This document shows positions 64-37,200 of a stretch of 64,000 bases of DNA, piece after piece. Both the position numbers and the translations under genes were made by a program. The notes beneath the pieces were generated by a model. The model was not told the DNA's origin and made no database searches. It saw nothing but the letters and a program-made list of their open reading frames with translations. Source of the stretch: Nageia nagi (taxonomy: Eukaryota > Plantae > Pinophyta). Positions within the stretch are counted from its first letter, which is position 1. The number at the start of each line of letters is the position of its first letter. The stretch spans positions 80,972,001 to 81,036,000 of the forward strand of contig JBITNC010000001.1 in NCBI GenBank assembly GCA_050084985.1, written 5' to 3'.

Positions 64-1571
64 TGATGAGTAAAATAATGGTATTCCAAATTCCATCAAA
101 GCTATCACTACCCTTCCCCTAGTGATCCTTTCACCTGTTATCGTGAAGGGGCCAGTTAACTCGTAGAGCTGGTACTCCAACACTCACAGCAGATTTTAGT
201 TTCCTCTCACTAGTCTTGGAAGACAATATCTGACTCCTTCATTTAGTTAATCAATCCGGGCGGTGTTCAAGGCTATATGCTATTGAACTCTGTTCTCTCA
301 GCTGTATCTACTTCAAATAAACATTGTAGAAAGCAAATATGCAGAATGGAAAGTTGCAAAATTGAAAATACAGGAATCTTAAATGCTGAAAGAAATATAC
401 ACTTGAAATCATCACACTGAGTGTAAACTCACACCTAAATTAAAAGAACAATAAAATAAAAGTGTCTTCTACCATTTGGAGTGGGCCCTTGCTTCTCTTG
501 GTGGAAGACTTAGAACAACTCAGAACTGGAAACTCTTAACAGATCACTCTATTATTGCGTACAATTTGTCTTGCACAGAATGTGCTTGACGAATATAATA
601 CAAAGTTTTATTCTCAACAATCTACACACAATACTTCCTTAATTTTCTAACCCCTTCCCCCCCCCCACCGTCAACAACTGAGGTATAAATATCCTCTGTT
701 GTTTAACAATAGGCTGGCCAAGAATAACAATAATTTGAACAATATTCTGTTATAGAAAACAGAATCAGTTATTCCACCAGCTAGCTAATGCTAAAATTAA
801 CATGCTAACAGTGCCCACGTCTTATCTAAGGAGAGCTGCAATCTCTTAAGAAAAGGGTGGCTCATCTCAACAAGTCAACACTATCCTATTTACATCATAA
901 GTAGTTTATTATGCCTAATTTAGAGTCAAAAATACTCCATAAAACGAATCATATCTGACTATATCTAATGTGTTGGAGCCATGCTTCTATATACTATATC
1001 TAGAGCAGCTCACATCACATAAATATCTAGATTATACAAGGCTAGAATAGAGCTGACAATATAGTCAATACTGACAGTCAATTTCTCAAATTTGGGTTTG
1101 GAGCAGGAGCTCCGGACAAGTCTGGAATAGAAGCTTCGGACGAGTCTAAAATAGAAGCTCCAAATGAGTCTAGAATAGGAGCTCCGAGCAAGTATGGAAC
1201 AGAAGCTTCGGACGAGTCTGGAACAGAAGCTCCAGACAATACAACTCTACTTTACCAAATGAGGCGTCCAATGTGTCCGGAGCAATGTATACAAGTGCAG
1301 AATCTATTTAGAATACTTCCTAACAATACTTGCAACTCATCTGAGTTATCAACCATCATTCCGTGGAGCAAAGACAAGCATTTTGGTTCAAACAAACACA
1401 CAAAATAGAATCAGTATTAACAAAATACTAATATAAGGAAAGTATGCATTTAACCATATATGAAGCAACTAAATAGTCCAACAGTTACAATTAATTCATC
1501 CCATAATGTCCAAATATACAAAATGAACCATCAAACAGTACCAAAAACCAGGTAATTACTGAGACTCATCA
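64..1571 (-). mobile_element. 5' LTR (1,508 bp) of an Athila-like retrotransposon extending beyond the window start, inserted in a hAT transposase
   Basis: Perfect 8-bp terminal inverted repeat TGATGAGT (64-71) / ACTCATCA (1564-1571), PBS adjacent at 42-59, and the hAT reading frame resumes right after 1571. Confidence 0.75.
1102..1238. repeat. 24-bp minisatellite (~5.5 copies, consensus GAAGCTCCGGACGAGTCTGGAATA) inside the LTR
   Basis: Directly visible tandem units. Confidence 0.85.
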
Positions 1572-1990
1572 CATTACAGATGCAAGCCCTGTTTGTAAGA
1601 GAGAAGGTAAATTGGTAGAGTCCACTTTTAATCATATTTATTGGACTCCATGTTGTATGCATGCTTTGAACAATACTTTGAAAGATATTGGAAAGATAGA
1701 ATGTGTGAAGGATATAGTTCAAGAGGCTAGAAAGATGCAAATGTTTATTTGTAACCATCACACATCAATGGCCTTGTTTCGGTGTTTCTCAAAGAAGAAG
1801 TTCATCAAACCTGCTGAAACAAGATATGCCACATATTACTTTCTCTTGGAGAGGATGCTTGAGTTACAGCAGCCACTCCAATCCATGGTAGTGTCATCAG
1901 AATGGAAGAAGTGGAAGGAATCTAAGTCAGATAACGGAAAAGCACATAAATTGAAAATCTTAAATGATAGTTGGTGGGATGAAATTAGGT
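1572..1990 (+). pseudogene. hAT transposase fragment (DUF659/RNase H-like core)
   Basis: ITDASPVCKREGKLVESTFNHIYWTPCCMHALNNTLKDIG...KPAETRYATYYFLLERML...ILNDSWWDEIR has the typical hAT CxxH and TR(F/Y)AT motifs. It ends at an AG|GTAAAT donor at 1989 and is truncated on both sides. Confidence 0.85.
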
Positions 1991-3929
1991 AAATGAAGTT
2001 TCATTTTAAATTTTTTGTTATTGATTGTTTATCGGGATCTCCAGTTTGGGCCTACCTTTTGGGAGGCCCAAATTGGAGATCCCGATAATGATTGTGGGAA
2101 TCCCAAGACTCATATATGTATTAGAGAGTCACTTATATGCTAGAGCCAGGCCTGGATAGGCCCCCACACCCCCATGTTGGCTCAATTATTCTCCTAGACC
2201 CCACATCAGCCCTCTTCCACATCATGGGCATGCGTGGCACTCCCTGACCCAGTCGTTGGCACTTAATACCCTTGGGACCCCACGTTGGCATGTCTAGCCA
2301 TTAGACACCCATGTTGGGCATTTCGAGCCCCTAGGAAGCCAACGTTGGTATAAGAGTTGGATGGTGATTCCTAGACAAGACCTTGATAGGACAAAGTATA
2401 AATAGACACAAAGGGCTCATTATTGAACACACTTGATCATTACTACGTTAATTCTCCTATTTCGTCCAATGGACAAGACATTAACGGAGCGCTAATTGTA
2501 TTCCTTAGGTGGAGCACCTAAGAGGGTAGCCATGCGTTGGGATCTTGACTATCTACGGCTTTGGTGGAGCACCATAGCCCATCCAATGGTACTCGAGGGT
2601 TTATTCCTACCGTTTAGTTAGTTGACCAGAGATCGAGGAGAGCTCCTTTAGTGGGGAGGAATTGAGATTTGAGGGTATAGATCTATCCTATGGTTCTAAG
2701 GTAATTGCAGATTGTTATCATTGTGTTCAGCTTGGCTCTTAAGAAGCCCACGATTGCCCTAGGAGGGTTTGTATGATTTTGTACTACTCCATATTTGAAC
2801 ATACTCGATAAGGGTTCCTGGCTCTCATATTGTGTTGTCTTATGCATGCGTTGGCTCATTGTGATTTCTCATACTTGTATTTCTCCTACGTTGTGTTGTG
2901 CCCGCACAACACACCCCAAGAAGCAACATTTTGGGGACCCAATTTTTTCAAACGACAATGAGCAACATTGCTTGGGTATGATCAACTTATGACCGATATA
3001 AATACCCAGAACAGTGAATTGATCAAACAATGCACAAGCATGCCCAGGAGTCATGGAAACAGTTCAACTCAGCCATTGGCCAAGTCAAAGCGTGGTCTCG
3101 AGCAGTGTCTCAGAGGATGGAGTTGTGGATTGCAACAGCAACCAGACAGTGGAGTTTTGAGCGAATGGTCATTTGGGCAAAAAAGGTGTCGTTTTGGCAA
3201 AGTTGAGCAACAAAGGTGCCAAGACGACAAAAGGTGCATTTTTCGTTGAGTTTGCGCCCAAAAGCAATGGATACAGTTAAGATGACGAAAATGCGCGTTT
3301 TTGCACAAACTGAGCTCGGAAAAGGCATCTACAACCAAAAAATGCATTTTTGTCAATTTTGAGCCAAGGGAGCCAGAAAATGGTTAGTAGCACGGAAAAG
3401 TGCATTTAGGTCAATTTTGAGCCCAAAAGTGGTCACTATGCTCAAAATGTGCGTTTTTTGCATGATTGGAACCTGGAAAACTCGAAAATGACCAAAAATG
3501 CAAGTTTGAGCTCAAAGTGCTTGAAAATGCCCGGAAAGGCTAGAAATGAGCATTTTTGCATATCGAGTCCAGAAAGGCCAACAATAGACTTTGAGCTCAA
3601 AATGTCGGCAATGCCGGAAATAACCGTTGTTTCATCGTTCGAGCTCGAAAATGTCCGAAAATGGTCAAAATTCATACTTAGAGCCCGAAAATGCCGGAAA
3701 TGGCCGGAAATGCACCGTTTGGGCCCGTAAAAGATGAAGAAGGTCAAGAATGTACAGTATAGCCCGGGATGAATGAGGAAAACAAGTTTGAGCGCCCTTG
3801 TGGGCCAAGATCATGAAATGAGCATTTTGGCCTCCGAAAAGCTTTGATTTGAGCCCAAAAATTGAGTTTTTTCCAGAGTGCTCGAAATGAAAAGCCGAGA
3901 GAGAGGTGTGGTGCCAAATGACAAATTAA

Positions 3930-5470
3930 GGTCACTTTACTCTTGGAAATTTCGAAAAAACTCCATTTTTGACCCCCAAAAAGTTAGGGGGGAGTTTTGC
4001 AAGTTTTCCCTTAGTAAATTTCAAAAAATAGCCTATTCCCCTCAAAACCTACGCCTACCTTTTGGGAGGCCCAAATTGATTCGAAATGGCAATTTTTGAG
4101 CTCAGGAGAGTGGGGATCGCAATTCTACATCAAATTGGTCTTTCAAGTTCATGATTTCGATGAGATTTGCTCCACCGAAAGTAAGAAAAACAGGAAAATG
4201 AGCAAAAAGGCAGCCAATGAGAATGCTCCAAGATTTCCAAAATTCCCAAAAGTGTCAAAATGAAAATTTAAGAGTGAGGTAGGGTGGCAAATCAAAAACT
4301 AGGCACCTTGCCTCATGGAATTTTCGAAATTGAGCAAATTTTGACCCTCCTAGAGCTATGCACTGGTCTTGGGTGTTTTCCCTTATTTTTCAAAATCTTC
4401 AAAACACCCCAAACATCCTAAAACATGCACCTAGCCTTCTTGTGCCCTAAATTTGAAAAAAATTGAAAATTTTGACCTTCAAGGGGTATAGGATGGGATT
4501 CCACACAAGGTTGATGATTTGACTTTTCTAAAAAAATAAAATCTACCTCCTCAAATCATCAAATTTCGATTGACCAATGAGAGGGCTCAAAATTTTCCAA
4601 AATTGGTCAAATCAAAAAAGGAAAGTGAGGTAGGGTGCAAAATTCAAAGGAGATCAACATTGCCTCTTGCAATGTTGCAAAAAAATCAAGTTTACCCCCT
4701 CAAAAAGCTAGGCAGCAGTTTTGGCTTGTTTCCCCCATTTTCTAAATTTCCAAAAAAACATGCCAAAGCCCCTAAAACCTGTGCCTAGCTTGCAAGCCCT
4801 CATTCTTGCTCTAAAATCAAAATTTTTGAGCCTAAGAGTATGGGAAATCCAATTTTGCATCTCTTTCATGTTTTAAGTTTTTGGAAAAAAGTTGATCTAC
4901 TCCCTCAAAATCCCAAAATTTGGACCAACCAATGGGAGAGCTCCAAAAATTTCAAAAATCCCAAAAACAAAATTGGAAAGAAAGATAGGGTTGAAAATCC
5001 AAATGCAAGCATCTTTGCCTCTTGCAAATTTGCTCAAAAACTAATTTTCGCCCCTTAAAAGGTAGGCATTGGTTTTGCAAGTTATCCCCCATTTTTTCAT
5101 TTTTCAAAACTTGCCTAAACATCCTAAAACCTGCGCCTAGCCTCCTTGGTCCCTAAAAGTGCCCAAAATTGCAATTTTTCACTTCTATGAAGTAGGTGGT
5201 GCGATTCTACACCATTTTGATCTATCATTTGTACAATTTGGTTCACACAAACTCCTAAAAACCACCTTTTGCATTCAAAAAAGATCTAAGGGCAGAGAAA
5301 ATTAAAAAATCTCAAAATTCAAAATCCAAATCTGAAGCATGTAGGTTGTAGAGCATTCCAAGGCCATCATCTTTGTTTCCAAGACCCCCCATGTTGTTCC
5401 AAAACAGCCCCTTCCACACTTAGGTGCAGGTTTTGGGTTATTTCCCCATTTTCCTCCACTTTTCCAACGT
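3930..5470. repeat. Diverged ~355-360-bp tandem repeat, ~4.5 copies
   Basis: Recurring blocks (TTGCCTCTTGCAA...; CCTAAAACCTGCGCCTAGC; CCAATGAGAG..CTCCAAAATTTCCAAAAT) at about 3935, 4305, 4660, 5015 and partially 5370. Confidence 0.8.
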
Positions 5471-5560
5471 TGGGTTTGAGAGAGAATAGTCCAAAGTGCA
5501 AGTGTTGAGCTCTAGGGTTGATGTGGAAGTGACATGTGGCACTTTTAACACCCCTAGGTC

Positions 5561-5568
5561 TATAAATA
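5561..5568 (+). promoter_or_regulatory. Putative TATA box for the internal ORF of the 8-kb element
   Basis: CTATAAATA followed by a pyrimidine-rich initiator-like region, directly after the tandem array and ~860 bp upstream of the ORF ATG. Confidence 0.45.
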
Positions 5569-6419
5569 TGATCATAACCCCTCCACTTTGCTCACCTATC
5601 ATTTTTGCACCTTTATGCTACCCAAATTTTTGAGAATTTGAGAGCCAAGTGAGAAAAGAAGCCATTTTTCAGCTTTGGAGGATTTTTCAAACACTTAGCA
5701 TCTTGGCCATTTACCCAACCTCCATTAAAATTCGAAATCCATGCATCCTCCATCCACATGAACTCCATTTTTCCAAGTTTTGAGGATTTTTTTACAAAAA
5801 CCCATTTTTCAAACCCTCAAACACTTGAAAATTTATTTTTTCAGATTTCAAGTTTGATTACTTTTTTGGATACCCTTTATTCATGGAATCAACTTTTATT
5901 TCCAGCTAAAAAACACAAAAAAATTCATAAGATCCAAGATCTGAGTGCTCAAAGTTCTCATTTCTTGAAAAAAATCCAAAAAAATTTCAGAAAACTGTAA
6001 AAATGTTTCTGAAATCCGTTTTGTCCGTTTCAAAGTCTGAAATACCTTCCCCATTCATTCCCCATCCATCTAAATTGTTAGAACTTGATTCCGGCACCAT
6101 TTGCCAATTTTGCCAAATTTCACCATTTTTCTTGTTGAAAAAGTCAACTTTTTTTGAGAAAAACTTGAAAATTCTCCAATCATCTTAAATTTTTGCCAAG
6201 GCATTCCCCTTTGAGGCAGCTACCTTTGTGTCACCTTAAACTCACCTAGAAGGCTTTGAAAATTGAAAAATCTTGATATTTTTCAATGATGGCACACTTA
6301 AAGAAAAAAATGCCCAAAATCCCAATTTTTTGAAAAAAAATCTCTTAGCTTGCCTAGAAAGTGCCACAAGCTTCCCAAGACTCCTCTAACACTGTGTTGT
6401 TGTCTTAGACAGGAACAAG

Positions 6420-9400
6420 ATGGCATTAGTTTCTCAAAATATCAAAGATAGAAAGCAGAAAAGGCTCACAATGGATAGTCCCATCACTCTTGAACATACA
6501 TCAGAGCTTGTGATGCCCATCGCAAGAATCATTGACCAACTGAGTGAGATCGGAGATACAGATTGTAACTCCCTAGATCCAATTAAAACTCTAATGAAAA
6601 TACATACATTGGATTCAACTTCGATAGTGAAGGACACCTTGAAAACTTCCTTACTACTATCAGCTTCTATGGTGCCATTTGCCACCCCCTTCCCTGAGTT
6701 GTGCTACGAGCTAGGAAAGCATTGCGACATCCGAGAGTAGAGACTCCTTGATAGAAGAAACAAGGTAATCATGGACTTCTCTGAGGAAGGAATAGAAAGG
6801 GCATTCGCTTGAAAAGGCGAAGGCCTATCATACAGTGTGCAAGACTCCTTAAAGCTCTACAAGAGTCTGAAACCTCTAGCTGATTTGATCAAAGATTGGT
6901 TGGCCAATGACCGCAAGCATCTCACAGGGAGAGCCTTAGCAATGCCAAACAGATGAGAGTTCTATCCAGTAGTCTCCAGACAAATATCCATGCTTTCCAA
7001 AGTGACCGGACGGAAACATGATACCAAATTCTGGCCGGAATTCGCAAGGTTTATAGAGCTAATCAGTAGCGGTAAAGGTGTTAGGTGGAGCAAGGTAATT
7101 AGTGATTCCTTGGCTCAGCAACTGAAACACATTCAGAAGAGCAAGAAATTCTATATGAACTCCTACCTAGTTTTCCTACTACTTCATGGTAAGGAGAGGG
7201 TAACTTCAATCGCCAATACCCAGTATCTGTACAACCCTACACATCCAGTGTGGGAAAATTACCCCCGGTTCTATGCTCATAATAAATGGAATACTGGAAA
7301 CTGGATGATGATGATCGATAGTTTTGAAGGCAAAATTTACGAAGAGATCCTAGGCAGAGCCAACGTATTCAGAATATCCAAAGAGGTTGCTGCCCCTATC
7401 AAAGGACATGCGGACTTCTTTGCAGAAGACATAGAGTTCACCTACCTCAGGGTCTATGGCTCCAAAGAAGCCCCTTCAAGGCTACCCCGTTATGCAAGTG
7501 ATCGTATCATCCTTATGGAATTTTCAAGACACTTGCTAAATGTACATGGCAAGGTATGGGTAAAGAAGGCAGCGACTACTTACCAATTACCTATTGTCAT
7601 CGGGAATTATGAATGCACCACCTGGTGACAGATTGAAATGATCAAACAAGAACTAGTGTTGTATGAATTCCCGACAGAAGTAACGAATCACTATGATCCC
7701 GATGGAGTGATTGATGCATTCTTCCAAAAGACTTGGAGCTCATCATACCCACACCAGTCCCTTGGTAGCATCGAGAGGTACAGGAACATTCAAGATGCCC
7801 TGCAGGTTCAACGGATTCACAAGGAGCTAAAAAAAGAACAAAAACAGCATGAAGCAGAAGAAGCTGCCAGGTTAAGAGCCAATGCATGGGTCACCGTACC
7901 CCCAAGCCTCAGGTATGTTATTCCCATAATATCCCCTTCAGTAACCTTGGCTCAAGGACAGAACGGGTAGTATGCTACCAATAGCATCCCCGGACAAACC
8001 ATTGAAACAACTATCACGAGTATGAGGAATGAAATCCTAGACCTTAGAACAGCAAGCCTGATCTCTCAACCATTCAAACACTTGCAAAAAAAGATAAATC
8101 TCCCGCAAGGTTTGAATCGGAGTGGTGTGCGCCTAAATCAAAACCCCTGCACATCATCATTCAGTTCCGATAAATATGGACCGAGTGACTCGTCAGAGAC
8201 CAATGAAGAGATGGATTTTGTTGTGGAGTCATCAACACCGACATGGAGATAAACCAAGATACTACCTTTGAGCGGGTCAACACTGATCATTCAGTAGAGA
8301 TCCTTAGCAAAGGCCATCCCTCAGTCGATATGATTGTACAGCAAGCAGTAGGAATAAATACCCCAAGATCTGCTCCTCGGAAATAGGCATCGCAAACGCA
8401 ACCATCTCGGAGGACCACAACAACATCAGCTTAGAAGGGTACTTTAAGACCTAGGACAATGGCATCATCTTCAGGGGGAGATGATAGAAATCAGAAAGAT
8501 GAGGGAGAAAATGAAGAACAGAGGAGAAAAAGAAGACAAGTAGAGCATGACGTCGAGATCATCGAAGACGGAGAGATGGTTCCCTACAGAAAACAACCTA
8601 TGGAACCCCGCTTCGACATGGCTGCAGTGATGACCAGTTTGAGTTCAAATCATCTCTACGAAGGAGAAGATTCCGAAGATGAAAATGAGGAACTTCAGCA
8701 GATTGATACTCTTATGACCACTGTAGGAAAAGTCACCTACAGGGACAAGCTCTACTCAAGGAAAAACAAGGTTGGTACCGGAAAGTTTCCCCTCACCATC
8801 AAGAAAGAAGAGGCCCCTGCAGAGATTGTTGGCCCATTGGGAATGGAGCACAGCATCATCACAAATGCCCGGGCATTGAGGGAATCCGGTACATTATTGA
8901 AGTTAGAGAACCGAGAGCTGAAGAAGATAGTGGCGAGGCAGGAAATAATCAACAAAGAAGTTAGGGTTGCTAATTTGATAGTTGAAGACATCAAAAAGCA
9001 AGTTGACTTAAATATTGGAATCACCGCCCTGAAACAACGTGGACCAAGAACCTTATTGAGGCCATCAAAGCACTCCACTCAAGCATGGTAAATTTTTATA
9101 GTAAGGAGGAGGGCTCAGGAGGAGAAAATAGACCAATTGATACGCAAATGGAAGAATGGGTACCCTACAATGCTAGACCTACGGAGAAGGGAAACCCATC
9201 ATCCTTTCGTGTTGGATTTTTGTATAGATTGGTTCCAACTGTACGATTACTTGTTCTATATCAAAGCCAAGTCCACCGACTTCATATGCACCAAAACCCA
9301 ACTCAAAGTTGTCATCAGTGAACAGGCAAGGAAGTACGAATTCCTAGTACCCTTGTTTGAGGAAAACGACAGCATTAAGGAGTATATGACAATGATCCAC

Positions 9401-9559
9401 GCCACTATCGCAGAGCAAATATGTTCCGAGGATCCACACAGCTTGAAAATAGGAAAACAAATGATAGGAGGGATGAGACTGGCTGATTGGAGCAAAGAAA
9501 TGGTCAAAACCAATAAGGCCATCCTGGAGCACCTGCTATCAAATGAAGAAGCCCTCTAG
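6420..9559 (+). pseudogene. Decayed ~1,045-codon retrotransposon accessory ORF of unknown function
   Basis: Track ORFs 6420, 6990, 7638 and 8022 share one frame, and 8459 and 9137 share a second. They are separated only by isolated in-frame stops and one frameshift near 8200-8250. Architecture: globular N-half (WSKVISDSLAQQL..KKFYMNSYLVF; YLRVYGSKEAPSRLPRYASDRIILMEF; HYDPDGVI), acidic linker, coiled-coil-like segment and helical C-terminus. Confidence 0.8.
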
Positions 9560-9796
9560 ACAATCCACCATGCCATCAGGAATGGAGAAGCGTTCATGGG
9601 AGATGACTTTAAAACCAAAATCGCCACAAACGTGCAAGTCATCTTCCCACAATTGCCATAATAGAAAGGGGTCTATTCTAGCAAGTTTTTGATATGTAAG
9701 CCAAATATTTGGCCAATTTAGTGGATTTCCACTAGGTCCAATTGTAATCTCTATTTAGCATTTTTAATTAGCTTGTAATTAGCTTTTAATTTTGCA

Positions 9797-9870
9797 ATTA
9801 GGGTTAGGGTTTTGAAACTCATTTCTAGGGTTTCAAAAGTCATTTTTAGGGTTTCCAAACTCTATAAGTA
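9797..9870 (+). promoter_or_regulatory. Putative LTR promoter: three TAGGGTTT telo-box motifs followed by TATAAGTA
   Basis: The motifs are visible ~1 kb before the CAACA end, where the U3/R boundary would be expected. Confidence 0.5.
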
Positions 9871-12327
9871 AGAGACCAAGGGTCTCATTTTTGCAAGGAC
9901 TTCATTCTGAAGCAAAACACTTCAAGCTTGAAGAGAGAACTTTTGTAAGAGAGTAGCAAATTGATGTATCATTGCACAACTCTTTTTCAAATTAATACAA
10001 AGTGGTCAAAGCAAAGGCTTGAGTTTGAAACTTTTCACATTGGTGTTATTGATTTATTCTTTGAGGGCACTCATAGTGGGTTTGTGTACTTTCATTTTAT
10101 TGCTTTGAAAGCTCACGAGATTTAGGGAAGTCATCTCTAAAAAACTTTAAAAGTGCTTGAAGCCTACCTATGCTTGTTGCTTGATCCTTAACATGCAAGT
10201 TGATTGGGTATTCTATGTCAGATTCCTACTTCTATGACATCTTTTTAAGTCCATCCAAAGCCGTGATCCACCCACGTTGAAACTTTCCGTTTCCACCCAT
10301 TTGACGTTCATCCCGCTCCTCTTTGAAGCAATTCAAACATTAAGTTGTTGCTTGCAAGGTTGGATGAATTGGATGAAGAGTCTTTAACCGATTCAAAAGA
10401 GAGGCAACTCTTAGACAATTTCCCGTCAATGAACCTAAACCTCATACCTGACCAAGTATCCCTTCTTTCTCCAAGGTGTCGTCCTTCACCTTTTACAGTA
10501 TTACCTTTACGCTTTCTTTATGCTTTCATACAAAATATGATCGTTAAATCCACACACAAAAGTTTCGAACAAACTCCATACATCGAAGAATAAAACATTG
10601 TTGGTTAACTAAATACATACCTCTCATTCCATTCCATTGAGGCTAATTCCAAAGAGGTATACCGCACCTTTTTTATTTATCTATCCCTATTCAGAAAACA
10701 CACCAAGCGAACAAACCTTACGTCACGTCGTTGGGTCGCCGGGCAGGGTGTTTCAACAAGAGCCTTGGAGGTACGCAATCCTTTTCAACCGGGGGAATTG
10801 GTAACGCATTCCCAACTATGTTGTTTGGGATCTCCTAAGTTCCGCCTGCGATATCCAAAGTGTCTCGCACGGGAAAGAAAAGCATCCCAACACATTGGTG
10901 TTGTGTTGTTGAATGAATTGTACATTGCATGTTTAGGCCAAACGTTGGCATTCTGGCATTATAAATGTATTTGTGACTCACCCTAGCACTAACATTGGTA
11001 TCTGAAGAGTTTGATTGTGCATAGTGTTTGCCCAAGGCTTGACATCAGGGTTTGGCGGTTGTTGAGAGCTGTTTTTGAGTGGAGGTCCCTTTTGGATCAT
11101 CACAAGTGGTATCAAAGCCCAAGATCTTGCCACTTGGGGGATGAAGGCCAAATCTACAGTCAAAGTGAAGAAGTCTGAGTATGGCCAAAGGGTTTTCCGC
11201 CAGTTGCTTCAGAAATTTGACGAAGAGAAGATTCCTACAGAGGAAAGGGAGATGCTTGTTTGGTTCTTAGGAGAACGGCATGCAGCGAGGACGAGCAAGA
11301 AAAAAAGGGGAGGCATGGAAGCCCATAACAGAGTCACCACATAAAACACCACCAAGGATTGAGATCTTGCTCCGGATCTATCGCAATACTACCAAAGAAT
11401 TCCAAAGAGATGTCACTTTCTACATGTATCAAGATCTGTTAGGGTATGGAGTGGTTGCTTGGCAGAAGACCAACATTGGAGGGTTTAAGCCAGTCCAAAC
11501 CCCAACGTCTGAACCAGGAGGTATCCGAGATGGAGAGACCGCCCTGGATCGAAAGAAGATGGCCAAGAGGAAGCTAATGCTTCGATCCAACAAAACTAGC
11601 CGCAGATTAGAAGCCGTCACTGAGATAGTATCAGCTAGGAGAATGGACGCCATTATCCGGAAGAAGGATGTAGAATGGGCTTGCGTCTTCACGTTGGCTA
11701 AAGGAGGTCCCATGTTACACATTGGGGAGGCCAAAGGGCATCTGCCTGAGATCCAAGGCATTTTGGATCGGTATCCGGATGTTTTCGGTGATATTCCCAA
11801 GGGTTTGCCACTATCCAAAGGATTTGAGCATATGGTGGAGTTGGAGGCAGGAGCCAAGCCAGTCATGGTCACTCCTTATAGGCATCCGAACGTGTACTAG
11901 GATGAGATAGAGAAAGCAATTAAGGAATTGCTTGATATGGGTTTCATTCGACCTAGTTCCAGTCTGTTTGCCTCTTCGGTAGTGTTGGTGAATAAAAAGG
12001 ATGGGACGATGAGGATGTGCATAGACTACAGGCTGCTCAACAAGAAGACTATTAAAAATAGGTACCCGATCCCGAGAGTAGATGATCTCATTGATGAGTT
12101 GCATGGAGCAAATTACTTCTCCAAGATCGATTTGAGGTCCGGTTATCATCAAATCCGAATGGAGAAGGACGTCCACAAGACCACTTTTCGATGTCATTAT
12201 GGTCATTTCAAATTCTTGGTGATGTCGTTCGGATTGACCAATGCAGCAGCTACATTCCAGTCAACCATGAATCAAGTTTTCATAGATCAATTGCGAAAGT
12301 TTGTGTTGGTGTGCTTTGATGATATTC

Positions 12328-13551
12328 TGATCCATAAACTAAAAGATTAAAATTTCAATTTAACCTTTTCTTAGAATCAATTCACACTTAAAACAATTAA
12401 GTGCTTGTAAAGGAAAATCAGGAACAAATTTGTAAACACAGAGAAGAGAAAAGCATTCACCATAGAAAGAGACAAGCAAAATTTATCCTGGTTCACCCAG
12501 TGTGGGCTACATCCAGCTCAAAAGCTCTCTACTATCAATGGGTGGAATCACTTTACAAGGCCTCCATGGTCCTTCAAAACCTCCTCTCACATTCACAACA
12601 CACTCACAGCTCTTAAAATCACAACAAGAACTGAGAACAACCTTCCTGAAATCCTCCTTTTTTTTCACGTCCAATTTGCTCCCCTTTTATACAATTTTCG
12701 GAGCTAAAATTGGAGAGTATTACAACTAGGAAATTTGATAAAAAAAAAACCTATTTTCAGATACCCATTAACCTCCTTGATCTTCCTGTCAAATTTGGGC
12801 TCAAATGGTTGTAAAAATCTCCCAAAAACGAGCTCTGAAATCAAAACAATACGCTCTCTGGACTGTTTCAGGCTGACAGAATTACTCAGCCTAATAATAG
12901 GACCTTAGGCGAATCAAAAATCACCATAAACCTTTGAAAACGCCAAAATACGTTAAAAAAAACTTAAAATCGGGTGGGTGCACAATGGTGGCAACACGTG
13001 GCGCTTGCTGGGCAGAAGTCAACCTCCTGTTGACTGGCGGCTTGGCTGGCGATCAGGAGGTGGCATGGCAGTTTGGCTGGCGGCTTGGTCTGGCGTGGGC
13101 GGTCAGACGGCGATCAGACGCGGTTGGCGGTCGCATGGCGGTCTCGGCTGGCGACTTGCGTGGGCGGTCTCATCGGTCTCGTGGGCGGATTGGTAGCAAG
13201 CTGGCGGTCAACCTGCGGGCCCCTCTTTCCCCCGCCTCGTCCTCCACGCGGCACTCCACGCAGGCGGTCTCCATTCACCCATCAACCTTCCACGCACGCC
13301 TCATCGCCTCCGACGTGGTCCGGCAGGTCCTGCCACAATGGCCGCCAAAACATTTGAATAAATTTTATTATTATTTTTTTTCTTTTTTTTTTTTTCATCA
13401 AAATACTCAAACTGAATTAATACCATATCTTCCACATACGGACTCGGATTCTCGATCCGAAAGAAGCGTCGGAAAGCTGAAGACAAGACGATCACACTGA
13501 ACACACTAAATGGAGATTACTGAATGTTGAAGGGATCCAAATTTTGGATCA
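12328..13551 (-). mobile_element. Solo LTR (1,224 bp) inserted in the RT FDD-IL motif
   Basis: Termini TGATCCA...TGGATCA, TSD TATTC/TATCC, and the RT frame resumes afterwards. Minus orientation is inferred from GTATAAAAGGGG and the U5-type motif GGATGTAGCCCACACTGGGTGAACCA, which also occurs in the copia LTR at 34622. Confidence 0.85.
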
Positions 13552-14241
13552 TATCCTGATATACAGCCAAACTTGGAAGGAGCACCTTAGACATTTGGAT
13601 CACGTCTTGAAGGTACTACAGGAACAAAGGTTTTACGCCAAATTGTCCAAATGTGAGTTTGGTATGACAGAGATATTGTACCTAGGGCATGTCATCAGCC
13701 ATGAGGGAGTTAAGGTTGATGAGCAAAAGATATCAGCCATTCAGGAATGGCCAGCCCCCACGTCCCTCACATAGCTGAGAGAGTTCTTAGGGTTATGCAA
13801 CTACTACAGGCAATTCATCTGTGGTTTCTCCCACTTAGCTTCCCCCCTCATGCAGCTCACTAAGAAAGATGTATTCGTTTGGGGAAGAGAGGCTCAAGAA
13901 GCCTTTGAAAGACTAAAGACGGTCATGTGCTCTTGCCCCTGTTTGGCCATACCAGATTTCTCAGCCCCCTTCACCATGGAATGTGATGCCTCCAAGTTGG
14001 GCGTTGGAGCTATGTTGATGCACAATGGGCAGTGATTGCATTTAAGAGCCAGAAGTTGTCCAATGCAGAGCAGAGTTTCAGTGTTTATGACAAGGAGATG
14101 TTGGCCGTTATGCATGCACTGGAAAGGTTTAAGCAGTACTTGGTTTGTGGGCCTTTCACCATTAGAAGTGACCACAATAGCCTGAAGTATTTCCTCAGCC
14201 AGACAGACTTGAGTGAGAAGCAGCAAAGATGGGTAAGCAAA

Positions 14242-15216
14242 TGTAATGTCCCAAAATATTTTAATTTATGTTTTGTTGTGTTTCTAGGCTTCTAAGGGGT
14301 GGGTCAGTGTGTTTTGAGAAGTTTTATTTTTAGTATAAGTATTTAGAAAGTTGGTTGTGTATTTAGAATAGTTTTGGGATAAGAAAAATTGTATAAATTA
14401 ATGTCATTGACCTGGTACACATTTTTAGTTTGATGGTTGAGATGATAAGGCAGTATTAAATGTCTCTACTATTTGTAACTTCCATTTTGGCAAAAGTAAC
14501 TGTTATGAGGTCAAAGTCCAAGGTATTATTTAATGCTTTTGTAACTGCCATAGGAGAGGATTTGTAACTGTTATGAGGCAGAGAGGTTTGAATTAAGACT
14601 TCCATGGCTATATAAGAGGAAGAGCTGGTCATTTGGTGAGGGCTAATTTTGGTAGAGAACTTGAAGAGCTTGCATGCTCTTGGGCCTTACTATTTTGCTA
14701 AGGATTTTTAAGAGGGGTTCCCATTAAATCTGATCTAATGGAGATTGGAGGAGAGATCTGAAGACTATTTACCCATTTGATGACAAATCTATTCAATGTC
14801 TGTATTTGTGCTTGCATGTTTGAAGATTCAGTGTTTTGGACACCCATTTGCACTCAAAAATTAAGGGACTGTGAGTTAGGGCTTGGACCAATTGTTAGAG
14901 GAGAGCAGAATACAGAATCTGAAGACACAATATCCTTATACACCCAAATCTGAAGCTGTCTACATATAGCCAAGGTCCTGCAGTGATGTGTCTAATTGTG
15001 TAAGCAATATTTGTGTGTTCTCAAGTTTAATGAGAGATCTGTTTAGCATACTTTGATTGTGCCTTCACTTATACAAGTTGTAATGTTCTATTGTTTTGGA
15101 GTGTTGTGTGTGATTGCCATCTATATTCAACAAAAAACAAGTATGAAAGGCAAAAAAATCAGTCCTATTCCTATTATGTCTTAAAGTGATTGTGTATTTG
15201 CATTTGGTCTATTTCA
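14242..15216 (+). mobile_element. Solo LTR (975 bp) inserted at the RNase H end
   Basis: TGTAATG...ATTTCA, perfect TSD GCAAA (14237-14241 / 15217-15221), QQRWVSK|LHLFDFEIQYVKGKN rejoins across it, and CTATATAAG lies near 14608. Confidence 0.9.
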
Positions 15217-18200
15217 GCAAACTCCATTTGTTTGACTTTGAGATTCAGTATGTCAAGGGAAAGAACATAGCAGCTTATGCACTATCCAGAAATCCCTCTT
15301 TCTATTCTCTTTCCTTCATTGTGGCTGAATGGAAGAAGGACCTCATGGATGAATACGCCTAGGATGAGTTTGCCTCCGGTGTTCTTAGTGGTGCGGTGAA
15401 GAACAAGAGATATGTAGTTAGGGAGGGGCTGATCTTAAAAAGGAACTGGGTCTTCTTAACCCCAACGTCTGAGGTGAAGAAGAAGGTGTTGCATGCACTC
15501 TACAATACCCCTCTCACAAGACACGCAGGCATCACAAAGACCTATCAGGCTGTGAGGAAGAGATTCATGTGGAAAACGCTCAAGCAAGACGTCTTGAAGC
15601 ATGTCCAGGAGTGTACACAATGCCAGGAGAATAAGGAGGAACATACGAAGCAGGGAGGATTGCTTCAACCATTACCCATTCCTCATCAGAAATGGGAGGA
15701 CATCTCCATGGACTTTATCATCGGCCTACCCAAGGCCCAGGGCAAGGATAGTATCTTAGTAGTGATGGATAGGCTCACCAAGTTCGCCCATTTCCTTGCC
15801 ATCACCACCACCCATACGACTACACAAATAGCTAATCTATTCTTTAGGGAGATCTTCAGGTTGCACGGGTTGCCAAAGAGGATAGTGAGTGATCGGGACA
15901 ACAAGTTCATGAGTTTGTTCTGGCAGGAGTTGTTCCGGTTGAGTGGGACGAACCTCACCCTAGCACCAGCTACCACCCGCAGACAAATGGACAAATAGAG
16001 ATTGTCAACAAATGGGTAGAGGGGTACTTGAGACATTATGTGACAGGGCAACAACAAACATGGGTCAAGTGGCTCCACGTTGGGCAATATTGCTATAACA
16101 TTACTCACCATATGTCTATTAAGATGTCTCCTTTCCATGCTTTATATGATTATGACCCTCCTAACTTCACGGATCTGATTTTTAATGAAGGAAGGGCACC
16201 CAAGGCTAACGATTTCTTGTAGGAGTACCAAGACATTATGAGGGTGCTAAAGGGGAACCTGCATATGGCTCAAAATCGGCAAAATAAGTATTATGATTAG
16301 CACAAAACAGAGAGGAGTTTCGAGGTGGGAGATATGGTGTACTTACAGCTGCATCCATTCTGACAATCCTCACTCAAGAAGCAGAAGGCAAAGAAACTAC
16401 AGCCAAGGTTCTTCGGCCCATACAAGGTCCTACATAGGGTGGGAGATGTTGCCTACGAGTTGGAGTTGCCCAAGGGGAGTGGGATACATAACACCTTCCA
16501 CGTCTCACTTCTAAAGAAGGCCCTGGGGCAGCAGGACATCTCATCCATTATTCTTCCCCCACTTAATGATGAGGGGCAATTGGTTCTGATTCCGGAGAGG
16601 GTGTTGGAGACTAGAGTCAAGAAATTGAGGTCCAGAGAGATTCAGGAGTACCTCATCAAATGGAAGGATTTGCCAGATGAAGATTCAACATGGAAAGGAG
16701 CAAACATACTCACACATCCATCATTGAGTTGCTTGAGGGCAAGCACTCTTGAGAGGGGAGGCTTTGTGATGTCCCCCTTGTTCTCTAGTCATTAATTGTA
16801 CGATCCGGAAAGATCTACTTGTAATATACTCTTCTTATGTATTTCTCTTTATGTTGTAACTTAGGATAGGAGACTTAATGGGTCAATGGACCCCACTGTG
16901 AGCCCCAAGTGGGACGTCTCCCTCCTAAGGATAGATTAGGAGTATTTTTCATGCTTGGAGATCCCAATAATGATTGTGGGAATCCCAAGACTCATATATG
17001 TATTAGAGAGTCACTTATATGCTAGAGCCAGGCCTGGATAGGCCCCCACACCCCCATGTTGGCTCAATTATTCTCCTAGACCCCACATCAGCCCTCTTCC
17101 ACATCATGGGCATGCGTGGCACTCCCTGACCCAGTCGTTGGCACTTAATACCCTTGGGACCCCACGTTGGCATGTCTAGCCATTAGACACCCATGTTGGG
17201 CATTTCGAGCCCCTAGGAAGCCAACGTTGGTATAAGAGTTGGATGGTGATTCCTAGACAAGACCTTGATAGGACAAAGTATAAATAGACACAAAGGGCTC
17301 ATTATTGAACACACTTGATCATTACTACGTTAATTCTCCTATTTCGTCCAATGGACAAGACATTAACGGAGCGCTAATTGTATTCCTTAGGTGGAGCACC
17401 TAAGAGGGTAGCCATGCGTTGGGATCTTGACTATCTACGGCTTTGGTGGAGCACCATAGCCCATCCAATGGTACTCGAGGGTTTATTCCTACCGTTTAGT
17501 TAGTTGACCAGAGATCGAGGAGAGCTCCTTTAGTGGGGAGGAATTGAGATTTGAGGGTATAGATCTATCCTATGGTTCTAAGGTAATTGCAGATTGTTAT
17601 CATTGTGTTCAGCTTGGCTCTTAAGAAGCCCACGATTGCCCTAGGAGGGTTTGTATGATTTTGTACTACTCCATATTTGAACATACTCGATAAGGGTTCC
17701 TGGCTCTCATATTGTGTTGTCTTATGCATGCGTTGGCTCATTGTGATTTCTCATACTTGTATTTCTCCTACGTTGGTGTTGTGTTGTTGAATGAATTGTA
17801 CATTGCATGTTTAGGCCAGACGTTGGCATTCTGGCATTATAAATGTGTTTGTGACTCACCCTAGCACTAACGTTGGTATCTGAAGAGTTTGATTGTGCAT
17901 AGTGTGTGCCCTAGGCTTGACGTTAGGGTTTGGGGGTCGTTGAGAGCTGGTTTTGAGTGGAGATCCCTTTTGGATCATCGCAGGCGAGCCCTAGGTGGGT
18001 GAAATCTATTAGGACATTGCGGGCACATATTGTGGATTTGAAAGTGTAGACACCTAAAAATGATTTTCTATTTATCATAAAATCATATTTATGGTATCTA
18101 GAAATAAATAATGCAAATGTCAAGAAAAGGTGTAAAGCAAATGTATAAAACGAGGAGCATAGTGTGGCATTCCCTATCATATTCTTGGGTTATCATATCT

Positions 18201-32885: not shown

Positions 32886-34253
32886 GTCTTATTAGTGAAA
32901 CCTGTGAGTTGCCCAATCTGATGAATCTGTCAACAAGTCTCTGGGAAATATCCATATTTCAAGTCTAGCAGACTTGACTCACTGGACTTGCCAACTTTCC
33001 CATAGTCTTACTAGTGAAACCCGTGAGTTGCCAAGTCTGAAGAATTTGTATCATAGAAAGGGTGAACTTTGTAATGTCCAACAGGAAAAATTTGAAAAAC
33101 AAAAAACTGTCAATTCCAAGCATTTCTTGCTGGTAGAAAAAATTGAAAAGTTTTTCAATTATGCCCTTTAAGGTTAGTTTTGTATCGATATTTGAATTTA
33201 ATTTTTAAGGAATGTATAAAATTGCAAAATTTGTATTTTATTTATTGGATCTTGTAGCCAAGAATTTTGCCCAGTCCAAGTCAAAAATACACCTGCCAAT
33301 TCTAAGCCTCATTGCTATGCCAAAGAATTAGGACCATACTATTGAGCATGTAATTAAACTTGAACTTGACAAGCATTTAGCTTGGTAAGAACTCATGCTA
33401 GGGAAAAACACAACTAAAAACTTGCAAAATCATAAATTTTTATTCGAATAACTTGATAAAATCATAAAACTCAGGACTTGTCAAAATACTTGGCAAGAAC
33501 TCATGAGTCAGCTACAAAATTGGCAAAAAACTCAATCAAAACTTGGTCAACCTCAAGAACTAGTGAGTTGAATGTGAGTACTCATTTTGATCAATTCGGC
33601 AAGATTACTCATGAGTACTTGCCACTGTCATGAAATCAACAATTATTCAGTTTGTTCAATTGAATATTCAGCAAACAGGGGTAAACACAAGGTTGATTAC
33701 TCAACTACATGGTTGTGCTAGCAAAAATGTAGCGACATATTTAAATTTAATTTTTTCTCCTTTGCTTTCATTTCAAAGTTGTCAAAGACTCCAAAGCTAA
33801 GAAGATAAGTGAAGGAGAGTGAACTTTAACCCTATAGGCATCAAAATCATACGTCCAAATCCTAGCAGGTAACAAATACAAGGGAGTTTTTGTTTTAAGT
33901 TTGTAAAAAATATTATACGGCTGAGTTTTTTTCTAAGCTAAGTTTGTAAATTTTTGCTTTTTTTAATGATGCAGTTTCCAATTTAGGAGGAGACAATGAG
34001 TGTAAGAAGAGATCTTGGATGTAAGCATTGCAATGAAGTGGGTGGACAATTGGAATGCAACTACTATGGTAAATTTATACATGGTAGGATTAAGTTTTAA
34101 CTGCATGAAATACCATCCTACTCACATTGTAGCGATGTGATGTGAATACATGCCCTAGCACAGAACTACAAGTAGCGTTGGAGATAAGTGCCTATTTCAA
34201 GAGTTTCTTCAAGGAGGAACATAAGCAAGAAACGAAGGTAGAAATGGGTAGCA

Positions 34254-37200
34254 TGTTAGAAAATGGAGACTACAACCGGCTAGAAAACAGAGAGCAGTTT
34301 CTTTCTCGTTTTTCAGTTGCCAAGAAGCCATGACACCTGGTTATTAGTTATAGAAGGGTTGGGGGTTACCTAACAACCTTCCTGATCCAACTTGGGTTTA
34401 AGTTGGGTTAGTTTATACCTATAAATAAGAGGCTTGAGTTGAGGCATGTAGTATTTGTAGTTTTGACAGCAATTGTGAAGTAGATTGTGATTATTGAGAG
34501 AGAGATTGTAGTGACGTTTTGTTGTAACTCCAAAGTGAAGATTGTAGCAAGGTTATGCTGCTGGTTTGTTACTTGGAGGACTTTGAAGAATGATATGCAA
34601 AAGGGTTGAAAGCTTCTCCGTGGATGTAGCCTACATTGGGTGAACCACGTTATCTCTTGTGTCTCTCTTTGTGTGATTGATGTTCATGGTTATTTGATTT
34701 CAGTAGTATGCTTTGAATCTTGTTTCTTTTGCTAAGGAGTAAGAGAATTATTGATGCTCTTGCTTATATAAACTTATTAAATCCTAACAAGTGGTATCAG
34801 AGCTTGTTGTTGTGTTGGGATTTTGTTGGTGAATCTTGTGTGTAGATTGGAAACCAGGAAGAGCACTATGGCAGAAGAAGGGAGGCTGAAGGTGGAAAGA
34901 TTTAATGGGCAAGGTTTTCAGTTTTGGAAAATGCAAATGGAAGACTACCTCTACCAAAAGGATCTCTATCAACCTCTAGAAGATAAGAGTAAGAAACCCA
35001 CTTCTATGAGTGATGAAGAATGGAACTTGTTGGATAGAAAGGCTTTGGGAGCTGTAAGACTTTGTTTAAGTTCTAGTGTAGCTTTCAATATTTCCAATGA
35101 AAAAACTACTAAAGGTGTAATGGATAAGCTTGCTAAAATGTATGAAAAACCATCTGCCTCAAACAAAGTATACTTAATGAAGAAATTGTTTAACATGAAG
35201 ATGAATGAAGGTAGTTCAGTTCAGGACCATGTTAATGAATTCAACACAATCACAAATCAATTAACTTCAGTAAGTTTAGAATTTGAAGATGAAGTAAGGG
35301 CTTTGTTAATTCTATGTTCACTTCCGGATAGTTGGAATAGCTTTGTTATGGCTGTTAGTAATTCTTCTTCTAATGCAAAATTGATCTTTGATGAAGTTGT
35401 TGGAACAATTCTAAGTGAGGACATGAGGAGAAAGTCCACGGGAGAATGCTCCAATGCTGCTCTCACAGTAGAGGCAAGAGGAAGATCAAAGGAAAGAAGG
35501 AGAAGCAAGTCAAGAAGCAAATCGCAAGGAAGGTCAAAATCAAAAGGTAAAACTAAATTGGAATGTTGGCATTGTGGTAAAAAGGGTCACATTAAAAGGG
35601 ATTGTTGGAATAGAAAAGGAAAAGAAAGTGAAAGTAGTAATTATAATAATGAAAGCACAAGTAACCAAGAGGCAAATATTGTTGGTGAATTAATTCAAGA
35701 TGCTTTAATCATGTCTAATGAAAAGAATGATGATTATTGGGTTCTTGATTCGGGTGCTTCATATCATGCTACTCCACATAAGAACTATTTTTCAAATTAC
35801 ACACATGGTGACTTTGGTCAAGTATTATTAGGTAATGAACACCCATGCAAGATTGTTGGTATTGGCAATATAACAATGAAATTACCTAATGGAACAAAAT
35901 GGACTCTTAATGAAGCTAGACACATTCCGGATCTTAAAAGAAATCTTATATCAACAAGTAAATTGGATAAGGAGGGCTATGTGATGACATTCGGGGATGC
36001 TAGTTGGAAAGTAACTAAAGGTTCAATGGTATTTGCAAAGGGAAATTTGGTGGGGTCTCTTTATTTGCTCACAAATGTCTTTGATTATTCATTGAATCTT
36101 GTTTCAATAGGCAATGATACATCACTATGGCATAATAGACTTGGACATATGAGTGAGAAAGGTATGAAAATGTTACACTCTAATGGTTCACTCCCTAATC
36201 TTAAAGAAGTTGATTTAGGATTTTGTGAAGATTGTGTGTATGGAAAACAAAAAAGGGTTAATTTTCTTAAAGTTGGCAAAGAAAAGAAGAGTCACAAATT
36301 AGAGCTTGTTCATACGGATGTGTGGGGTCCTGCACAGGTTTGCTCACTTGGGGGCTCATCTTATTTTGTCACTTTTATTGATGATTGTACCAGGAAGACA
36401 TGGGTATACTGTATTAAAAAGAAATCTGATGTGTTTGAAACATTTAAGAGGTGGAAGGCATTGGTTGAGAATGAAACTAATTCTAAGTTGAAATGTCTTA
36501 AGTCCGATAATGGTGGGGAATTTTGCAATAATGAGTTTGATTCATTTTGTTCACACAATGGCATTAGAAGGATTAAGGTGGTTCCTAGAACTCCACAGGA
36601 AAATGGGGTTGCAGAAAGAATGAATAGGACTATCTTGGAAAGGGCTAGAAGTATGAGGATACATGCTGGGTTTTCTTTGAATCTTTGGGCTGATGCTATT
36701 GACACTGCTGTTTATTTGATTAACAGGGGTCCATCTATGGCTTTAGATGGAGGCATTCCAGAGGAGATGTGGACAGGTAAAAAGGTGAATTACTCATTCT
36801 TGAGAGTCTTTGGTTGTGAGGCTTTTGCACATGTTGATAAAGAGGATAGAAAGAAACTTGATGCAAAATCACAAAAATGCTATTTTGTTGGATATGGTGT
36901 TAATGATTTGGGATATAGGTTATGGGATGTTGATAACCATAAAATCATTAGAAGTAGAGATGTTGTATTCAATGAGAAAAGCATGTATAAAGATAGATTG
37001 CAAAATGTTGAGGAACCCAAGTTTGTATCTCTAGAAGATGTTGATCAATATAAGGGTCCTGATAATAATAATGTTCAAGCACCTCCACCACAAACACCTC
37101 AAACTTTGTCACTTAGAAGGTCCTCAAGGAATAGAAATCCTCCTGAACGATACTCTCCTGCTCTTTATCATATTCTTTATACTGATGGTGGTGAACCTGA

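What the first reader, a model, noticed from the sequence alone, without database searches (positions are those of the whole stretch)
2894..10892. 8-kb solo-LTR-like element that encodes a ~1,045-aa protein inside the LTR
Seen: TG..CA ends with a 5-bp inverted repeat, a 5-bp TSD, a clean insertion into another LTR, and no PBS, gag, pol or second copy of its own 5' end. Six separate track ORFs join into one reading frame (6420-9559) with a single frameshift and isolated TAG/TGA/TAA stops, each one transition from CAG/CGA/CAA/TGG. Established: TG..CA plus a 5-bp TSD without internal domains defines a solo LTR; plant Ty3 accessory ORFs (Ogre, Retand, Athila) normally lie in the internal region, whereas ORFs in U3 are known from some retroviruses (MMTV sag, HIV nef). 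Inference: a retrotransposon family whose giant LTR is a self-contained gene cassette, duplicated at each replication and retained after LTR-LTR recombination. Its function is unknown.
Basis: partly seen in the sequence, partly recalled or inferred. Interest (0 to 1): 0.88.

Follow-up and report, generated by a model that had tools for sequence, protein, structure and literature searches.

The report
Giant plant LTR carrying VANC-like gene
This 8-kb insertion in a likely conifer genome is a decayed member of a repeated family, likely the oversized end-repeat (LTR) of a jumping gene, and it carries a selected gene whose protein is predicted to fold like VANC21, a plant transposon protein that switches off host silencing, next to an array of short DNA words that the protein would bind to protect its own copies.

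Summary
2894-10892 has TGTTG..CAACA ends and sits in the LTR of another Ty3 element. The target duplication is 4/5 (CGTTG/CATTG). No PBS-like word, gag/pol or second end copy was found. The 1,045-codon frame (8 stops, one frameshift) is a real gene: homologs read across the frameshift, and synonymous sites are saturated while pN is 0.32. 2894 is a family terminus in two public runs. An independent relative (47% protein identity) keeps the same layout: 5' region, tandem array, TATA, intron acceptor, ORF.

New here: AlphaFold models of the N-terminal domain (pLDDT 91-92) match only VANC21 among 48,161 solved chains (Z 7.0 and 6.5; next rows 2.7 and 2.8). The upstream array carries a convergent TAGGYRY word pair in both families. 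Best reading: a giant LTR whose U3 holds a VANC/PMD-like self-protection cassette.

Not shown: a full-length element with two 8-kb LTRs, a PBS or PPT at the ends, expression, DNA binding. The fold match is middling (rmsd 4.4-5.0) and Foldseek did not list it.

The parts
2894..10892 (+). LTR-like element, 7,999 bp, TGTTG..CAACA
   Evidence: 5' boundary has unlike flanks in 22 and 15 contigs of two runs
2889..2893 (+). left target-site copy CGTTG
10893..10897 (+). right target-site copy CATTG (1 mismatch)
2894..2950 (+). highly shared terminal segment, starting with an 18-bp near-palindrome
   Evidence: depth 41,168 at 2907-2931 against 205-3,618 over 2957-3531 in run X1; fold z -2.2
3526..3799 (+). 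5' segment homologous to L001:1-268
   Evidence: blastn 61-70% identity, E 4e-13 to 6e-8
3869..5450 (.). degenerate tandem array, about 360-bp units, with convergent TAGGYRY word pairs; about 183-bp units in L001
5561..5568 (+). TATA-like box of the internal gene (same word at L001:2061)
   Evidence: function inferred
6386..6412 (+). branch-point-like CTAAC and 3' splice acceptor just before the ATG, same layout in L001
   Evidence: splicing not shown
6420..8240 (+). ORF, first frame (5 premature stops: 6738, 6810, 6954, 7626, 7968)
6528..7376 (+). part of the ORF whose model aligns to VANC21 (9lnk_A)
   Evidence: homolog model
8243..9559 (+). ORF, second frame (3 premature stops: 8384, 8432, 9089; may run on to 9661): low-complexity charged linker, then a conserved, likely helical C-terminal part
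9863..9870 (+). TATA-like box at the position expected for the LTR's own promoter; R and U5 would follow
   Evidence: inference from LTR anatomy
2073..2893 (+). host Ty3 5' LTR, left part (1 difference in 821 from the 3' LTR; likely recently converted)
10898..11104 (+). host Ty3 5' LTR, right part (12 differences in 207), followed by the host PBS at 11107

Best explanation
The 8-kb unit is likely a solo LTR of a gymnosperm retrotransposon family whose U3 region holds a complete gene cassette, and the encoded protein is predicted to be a VANC/PMD-type DNA-binding factor that would bind the word array in its own LTR and keep it free of host silencing.

Shown: ends, target duplication, family boundary at 2894, conserved cassette order in a distant relative, a selected ORF of about 1,050 codons without a transmembrane helix, and a conserved convergent word pair in the array.

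Predicted: the fold of the first 320 or so residues and its likeness to VANC21.

Inferred: (1) integrase placed a full-length element here and LTR-LTR recombination left one LTR; (2) the gene is transcribed from the TATA at 5561 with a 5' intron, upstream of the LTR's own promoter near 9863, so both LTRs and every solo LTR carry it; (3) the protein binds the paired words, probably as a dimer or oligomer through its C-terminal helices, and lowers repressive chromatin over the LTR promoter. This copy is dead by mutation.
For: - Boundary and family.
- Order conserved at 47% protein identity, no PBS.
- Selection: 473 codon pairs, identity by codon position 0.64/0.71/0.39, pS 0.78 (saturated), pN 0.32.
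- 155 homologs at E<=1e-3; one is named, from Taxus chinensis (1 named to species of 20 looked up).
- Fold: VANC21-DNA 9lnk_A is the only chain with Z>=5 of 48,161 for both models: Z 7.0, rmsd 4.4, 222 aligned; and Z 6.5, rmsd 5.0, 239 of 298 aligned; next rows 2.7 and 2.8.
- Weak separate lead to DUF1985, the VANC domain family (score 0.86, 13% of members).
- Word TAGG[CT][GA][CT]: 19 in the L001 array and 7 in the window array, shuffle means 0.38 and 0.33, 0 of 200 shuffles reach it.
- Literature: VANC binds short motifs amassed in tandem repeats (PMC5735166, passages); PMD resembles VANC/DUF1985 (bioRxiv 10.1101/2024.09.27.615353 and PMC13547354, passages); PMD-A is carried by Gypsy elements (PMC5418596, passages).
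Against: - No full-length element, PBS or PPT was seen; the loose-end letters before 2894 show no purine tract.
- The first 55 bp are far more abundant than what follows, so many elements share the end but not this U3.
- Z 6.5-7.0 lies in the range the tool reports as typical for best hits of unmatched models. Identity to VANC21 is 7%. Foldseek did not list 9lnk among the 50 rows shown for either model. The two models share most of their alignment, so they are not independent.
- No Pfam hit to PMD, DUF1985, Transposase_28 or ATHILA for 95 members.
- Any tandem array multiplies its words, and the pattern was chosen after seeing both arrays. The word is shared by two distant families, whereas VANC21 and VANC6 motifs differ.
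- The domain is basic in the window (pI 9.3) but near neutral in P0003 and P0061.
Confidence: 0.45

Rival explanations
1. Same giant-LTR anatomy, but the protein is a transactivator or other chromatin/RNA factor (in the manner of foamy-virus Tas/Bel1, recalled, or of MAIL1/MAIN opposing Polycomb) rather than a VANC-style remover of DNA methylation; or the VANC21 match is only a common helical arrangement.
For: A shared fold shows no function, and Z is middling. An acidic, low-complexity middle part could be an activation region (composition). The word pair is conserved across families, which also fits a host factor site.
Against: The match stands 4 Z units above all other rows and covers 80% of the domain. 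It pairs with the very feature VANC systems have, a motif-bearing tandem array in the non-coding part of the same element.
Confidence: 0.27
2. The unit is a deletion or recombination derivative of an ordinary Tat/Athila-type element with shorter LTRs and an internal extra ORF (as in Ogre, TatII, Retand), fused into a solo-like piece.
For: Internal extra ORFs with tandem arrays are the known rule (PMC6317226, PMC11963269, PMC7264820). The terminal 55 bp are much more abundant than the rest. The left flank was recently rearranged. L001 ends before the 3' part, so ORF-to-10892 order was not seen in one independent molecule.
Against: It needs two deletions that remove PBS, PPT, gag-pol and both inner LTR ends. 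Listed contigs tile 2893-3548 (16 of 3,111 listed; 3261-3279 is not bridged by the listed ones), and L001 continues from 3526 through the ORF. The best-supported joints shown have depth of 35 or less and none skips the ORF except the empty-site joint (104 joints not shown). The 5' region is not deeper than the ORF.
Confidence: 0.16
3. It is not an LTR but a single-unit, transposase-less element with TG..CA ends and 5-bp duplications, moved in trans by an integrase-type transposase and carrying its own VANC-like gene, as VANDAL DNA transposons do.
For: No PBS or PPT was seen at the ends. VANC plus motif arrays is so far a DNA-transposon system. The 5' end has a conserved palindrome.
Against: The terminal inverted repeat is only 5 bp. 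A second TATA-like box lies 1 kb from the 3' end, as in U3-R-U5. 5-bp TSD with TG..CA is the rule for plant LTR elements (PMC6317226, supplement 5).
Confidence: 0.1

Closest known systems
VANDAL/VANC anti-silencing system of Arabidopsis (VANC21, PDB 9lnk; Hosaka et al. 2017, PMC5735166)
   Same: Predicted fold of the N-terminal domain; short words amassed in tandem repeats in the non-coding part of the same element; gene separate from the transposition enzymes.
   Different: VANDALs are Mutator-type DNA transposons of dicots. Here the carrier has LTR-type ends and a 5-bp TSD in a gymnosperm. Identity is 7%, the word differs and lies in convergent pairs, and binding and demethylation are untested.
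PMD-A and other extra ORFs of plant Ty3 OTA elements (Ogre PMD, Retand TRP28, Athila ORF; PMC6317226, PMC5418596, PMC11963269)
   Same: Large accessory ORF of a retroelement, often beside tandem arrays, probable DNA binder, likely the same fold superfamily.
   Different: Those ORFs are described in the internal region, and LTRs there reach about 5 kb (0.3-1.2 kb in Retand). Here the ORF lies between the two termini of one 8-kb unit with no PBS. No Pfam match.
Host PMD-C proteins MAIN/MAIL1/MAIL2 (bioRxiv 10.1101/2024.09.27.615353)
   Same: PMD/VANC-like fold tied to promoter DNA motifs, one of them palindromic, opposing silencing.
   Different: Host genes acting against Polycomb at gene promoters; not element-borne.
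Retroviral genes in or overlapping U3 (MMTV sag, HIV nef, foamy-virus bel; recalled, not from a call)
   Same: Coding sequence inside the LTR.
   Different: Those are a few hundred codons, in animal viruses, and unrelated in sequence; here about 1,050 codons with its own promoter and array inside the LTR-like unit.

Membership tests
solo LTR | TG..CA ends with short inverted repeat | tested here: met
   TGTTG..CAACA
solo LTR | 4-6-bp target-site duplication | tested here: met
   5 bp with 1 mismatch; single copy in the uninterrupted host LTR; empty-site joints
solo LTR | no PBS, gag, pol or PPT inside | tested here: met
   motif scan with host control; ORF list and Pfam
solo LTR | same sequence occurs as both LTRs of full-length elements (PBS behind, PPT before) | tested here: inconclusive
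   no genome held; flanks before 2894 unlike each other, no PPT visible; 3' end not examined at close range
Ty3 OTA clade (Athila/Tat) | RT/RH/INT phylogeny, aRH position, PBS type | not testable with these tools
   no internal domain of this family was available; Ty3 versus Ty1 membership is itself inferred
internal extra ORF (eORF-5'/3') | ORF lies between PBS and PPT | tested here: not met
   no PBS-like word in 3.5 kb upstream in the window; in L001 only two array words and ORF-internal hits; no second terminus copy
env-like ORF | transmembrane helix | tested here: not met
   highest 19-residue Kyte-Doolittle mean 1.0-1.5 in four sequences
VANC / DUF1985 / PMD superfamily | profile match to PF09331 or PF10536 | tested here: inconclusive
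   0 of 95 members in the families shown (25 of 36 listed); Atlas lead 0.86 to a cluster with 13% DUF1985
VANC / DUF1985 / PMD superfamily | VANC21-like fold | tested here: inconclusive
   sole hit at Z>=5, Z 7.0 and 6.5, rmsd 4.4 and 5.0; not in the Foldseek rows shown; favoured but below Z 8
VANC-type anti-silencing system | short motif amassed in tandem repeats of the element's non-coding part | tested here: met
   in two families
VANC-type anti-silencing system | sequence-specific binding and loss of methylation on cognate copies | not testable with these tools
   needs DAP-seq/EMSA and methylome data
VANDAL (Mutator) transposon | MuDR transposase; longer (about 9-bp, recalled) TSD | tested here: not met
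   no transposase; 5-bp TSD

The most novel reading that the evidence does not exclude
Gymnosperm retrotransposons carry, inside 8-kb LTRs, a complete VANC-type anti-silencing module (protein plus its own target array), so that each LTR, solo LTRs included, can defend itself and its relatives. The PMD/VANC fold would then have served retroelements as a sequence-specific counter-silencing tool before dicot VANDALs arose, and such elements would be a major conifer repeat class missed by LTR finders capped at 6 kb.
Probability: 0.33. Interest if true: 0.88.

Novelty: new variant of a known kind. Interest (0 to 1): 0.76.

Why it matters
The function of plant retrotransposon extra ORFs and of the tandem arrays beside them is an open question (PMC7264820, PMC11963269). 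This family ties the two together through a VANC21-like fold and a conserved word pair, which makes the anti-silencing idea directly testable by binding assays. It would extend the VANC/PMD fold to gymnosperm retroelements, bearing on whether PMD began in transposons or hosts (left open in PMC5418596).

Tried and rejected
Genome and contig searches
- No genome is held for this window, so full-length copies could not be searched.
- Viral contigs gave no relatives; genome contigs gave no match to the end.
- The one metagenome scan gave a single locus, L001, from 296 pattern hits. Longer contigs with homologs exist (9-23 kb) but could not be fetched.
- L001 is not searchable by Pfam family as a record.

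Family and structure searches
- Pfam found no meaningful family for the window pieces, 23 homologs or 95 alignment members.
- PDB by sequence found nothing.
- Foldseek pdb and viral gave no match at E<=0.001.
- The Atlas gave nothing for P0003 1-480.
- The C-terminal part was not folded.

Expression: no RNA holder listed.

Readings rejected
- The 'one transition from sense' argument is a tautology.
- An env-like role: no transmembrane helix.
- A microhomology join at the left end: the junction falls exactly where the right-hand duplication predicts, and one host base expected from such a join is absent.

Other
- The sigma-70 promoter scan does not apply to a plant.
- No tRNA genes in the window.
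- No second copy of the ORF in the window.
- The VANC21 structure paper and Sasaki 2022 are not held.
- Additional files 1 and 3 of PMC6317226 were too large to read and may list gymnosperm extra ORFs related to this one.
Full report
1. Anatomy. The window is repeat-rich plant DNA. A Ty3 element (RT and integrase remnants) has its 3' LTR at about 16765-17982 and a PBS at 11107. Its 5' LTR is split by the 7,999-bp unit 2894-10892, which starts TGTTG and ends CAACA. The five bases present once in the intact LTR occur on both sides of the unit, as CGTTG and CATTG. Contigs from other host copies join across the site in 3 of 4 public runs. The first and last 300 bp have no second copy in the window. 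A scan with seven recalled PBS 10-mers found none in the unit and found the host PBS.

2. The flank is not pristine. The host LTR part left of the unit differs from the 3' LTR at 1 of 821 bases, the part on the right at 12 of 207 (p 3.7e-8). The left part begins at 2073 in a hairpin (z -13.4) that contains 26 bp identical to 4053-4078 of the unit. I read this as recent repair and gene conversion from the 3' LTR, which is common in conifers (PMC5751070, passages). It could also explain the mismatch in the duplication. The left junction still lies exactly where the right-hand duplication predicts, so I take it as the original integration end.

3. The ORF is a real, dead gene. It has two frames, 6420-8240 and 8243-9559, with 8 premature stops and 1,045 codons; the frame is open again to 9658. 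HMMER finds 155 relatives at E<=1e-3, mostly fragments, including a 1,010-aa intact protein at 22% identity. Of 20 looked up, one is named to species, Taxus chinensis; this is the basis for calling the host a likely gymnosperm. P0003 and P0170 read across the frameshift. Against L001, 473 codon pairs give identities of 0.64, 0.71 and 0.39 by codon position, pS 0.78 and pN 0.32: strong purifying selection. There is no transmembrane helix and no meaningful Pfam family.

4. It is a family unit. Four runs from four studies (contigs only, coded names) cover all 30 bins of 1500-12500. Depth is no copy number, but the 5' part is not deeper than the ORF. The best-supported joints shown (depth 35 or less; 104 not shown) do not skip the ORF, apart from the empty site. 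At close range, 22 and 15 contigs stop matching exactly at 2894 with unlike flanks (agreement 0.40 and 0.43), and the 16 listed pieces tile 2893-3548, leaving 3261-3279 unbridged among those listed. No polypurine tract shows in those flanks. The first 55 bp are over tenfold deeper than what follows, so many more elements share this end than share the next part. That fits diverged subfamilies, but also short-LTR relatives.

5. The cassette order is conserved. L001 (5,735 bp, 47% protein identity) starts with sequence homologous to window 3526-3799. It then has a tandem array (408-1943, about 183-bp units), TATAAATA at 2061, and a CTAAC..CAG acceptor just before the ATG. The window has the same series: array 3869-5450 (about 360-bp units), TATAAATA at 5561, acceptor ending 6412, ATG at 6420. 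A second TATA-like box lies at 9863, downstream of the ORF and 1 kb from the end, where an LTR promoter would be. By LTR anatomy everything upstream of it is U3 (inference). L001 ends inside the ORF, so the 3' part was not seen on one independent molecule.

6. The array carries a paired word. TAGG[CT][GA][CT] occurs 19 times in the L001 array and 7 times in the window array (shuffle means 0.38 and 0.33; 0 of 200 reach it). It occurs 0 times in the rest of L001, 2 times in 5451-10892, and 47 times in the 56 kb outside (0.84 per kb; shuffles 37). It stands as convergent pairs about 50-70 bp apart in the units. Tandem copying alone inflates such counts and I chose the pattern after seeing both arrays. 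The telling point is that the word and its paired layout persist between arrays that otherwise align poorly.

7. Fold. AlphaFold2 gave confident models for P0003 1-476 (pLDDT 91.8) and for window residues 30-327 read with X at stops (91.0). Foldseek found nothing at E<=0.001. The full alignment against 48,161 chains returned VANC21 bound to DNA (9lnk_A) as the only chain at Z>=5 for both: Z 7.0, rmsd 4.4, 222 residues; and Z 6.5, rmsd 5.0, 239 of 298. The next rows are 2.7 and 2.8. The tool warns that Z under 8 can be a common arrangement, and the two models share their alignment. In favour, the hit stands far above the rest, covers most of the domain, and agrees with a weak earlier lead to DUF1985. 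DUF1985 is the VANC domain and resembles PMD (bioRxiv 10.1101/2024.09.27.615353 and PMC13547354, passages). I put superfamily membership at about 0.7.

8. Mechanism. VANC proteins bind short motifs amassed by tandem repeats in their own elements and remove silencing (PMC5735166, passages). Here a VANC-like gene and a motif array sit in one LTR-like unit, upstream of the presumed LTR promoter. The likeliest reading is a self-protection cassette in U3, copied into both LTRs at each replication and kept in solo LTRs. My odds are about 0.72 for the giant LTR, and 0.45 for giant LTR together with VANC-like anti-silencing. Rivals are another regulatory role (0.27), a deletion derivative (0.16) and a non-LTR unit (0.10).

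9. Comparison and novelty. Extra ORFs of plant LTR elements are described in the internal region (PMC7264820, main text read; PMC6317226, passages and supplement 5; PMC11963269 and PMC3485330, passages). LTRs there reach about 5 kb, and that survey capped LTRs at 6 kb. PMD-A is known in angiosperm Gypsy elements (PMC5418596, passages), so a PMD-like gene in a retrotransposon is not new. Ten searches of the open library listed no paper on a plant LTR that encodes such a protein, or on a VANC-like system in gymnosperm retroelements; PMC12844716 (passages) treats the question as open. Subscription papers are mostly not held. Unchecked notes of this scan report ORFs inside fungal LTRs, so coding LTRs are not unique. 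Retroviral U3 genes are recalled, not looked up.

10. Verdict. This is a real feature and a new variant of a known kind. The fold-plus-array pairing is the most valuable result; the LTR status awaits one genome search.

Noticed in passing
window 2028-2090: Near-perfect 25-pair hairpin (z -13.4) at the junction between a hAT transposase fragment and the truncated host LTR; it contains 26 bp identical to 4053-4078 inside the element. It looks like a templated repair scar (or an assembly artefact).
   Followed up: partly
window 2073-2893 versus 16955-17775, and 10898-11104 versus 17776-17982: One LTR pair gives two ages (0.1% and 5.8% divergence); likely gene conversion that stops at the insertion, which would mislead LTR dating.
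   Followed up: partly
window 2894-2950: Terminal segment with an 18-bp near-palindrome, shared by far more copies than the sequence behind it; possible integrase or protein-binding site of a larger superfamily.
   Followed up: partly
window 14242-15216: Another apparent solo LTR (TG..CA, GCAAA on both sides) inside the host pol region.
   Followed up: no
window about 12335-13590: High-copy insertion in the host RT region, apparently an LTR on the minus strand.
   Followed up: no
window 34247-39342: Young Ty1/copia element with 99.3% identical LTRs and a 1,321-codon open gag-pol frame.
   Followed up: no
window 58677-61061: Array of degenerate telomere-like CCCTAA repeats with higher-order units of about 370-420 and 1,770 bp.
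   Followed up: no
window 1093-1258: 24-bp tandem repeat lying in a short open frame (1046-1408).
   Followed up: no
P0061 (1,010 aa), P0022, P0109: Distant homologs at 22-24% identity suggest several gymnosperm element lineages carry this domain; their genomic position is unknown.
   Followed up: no
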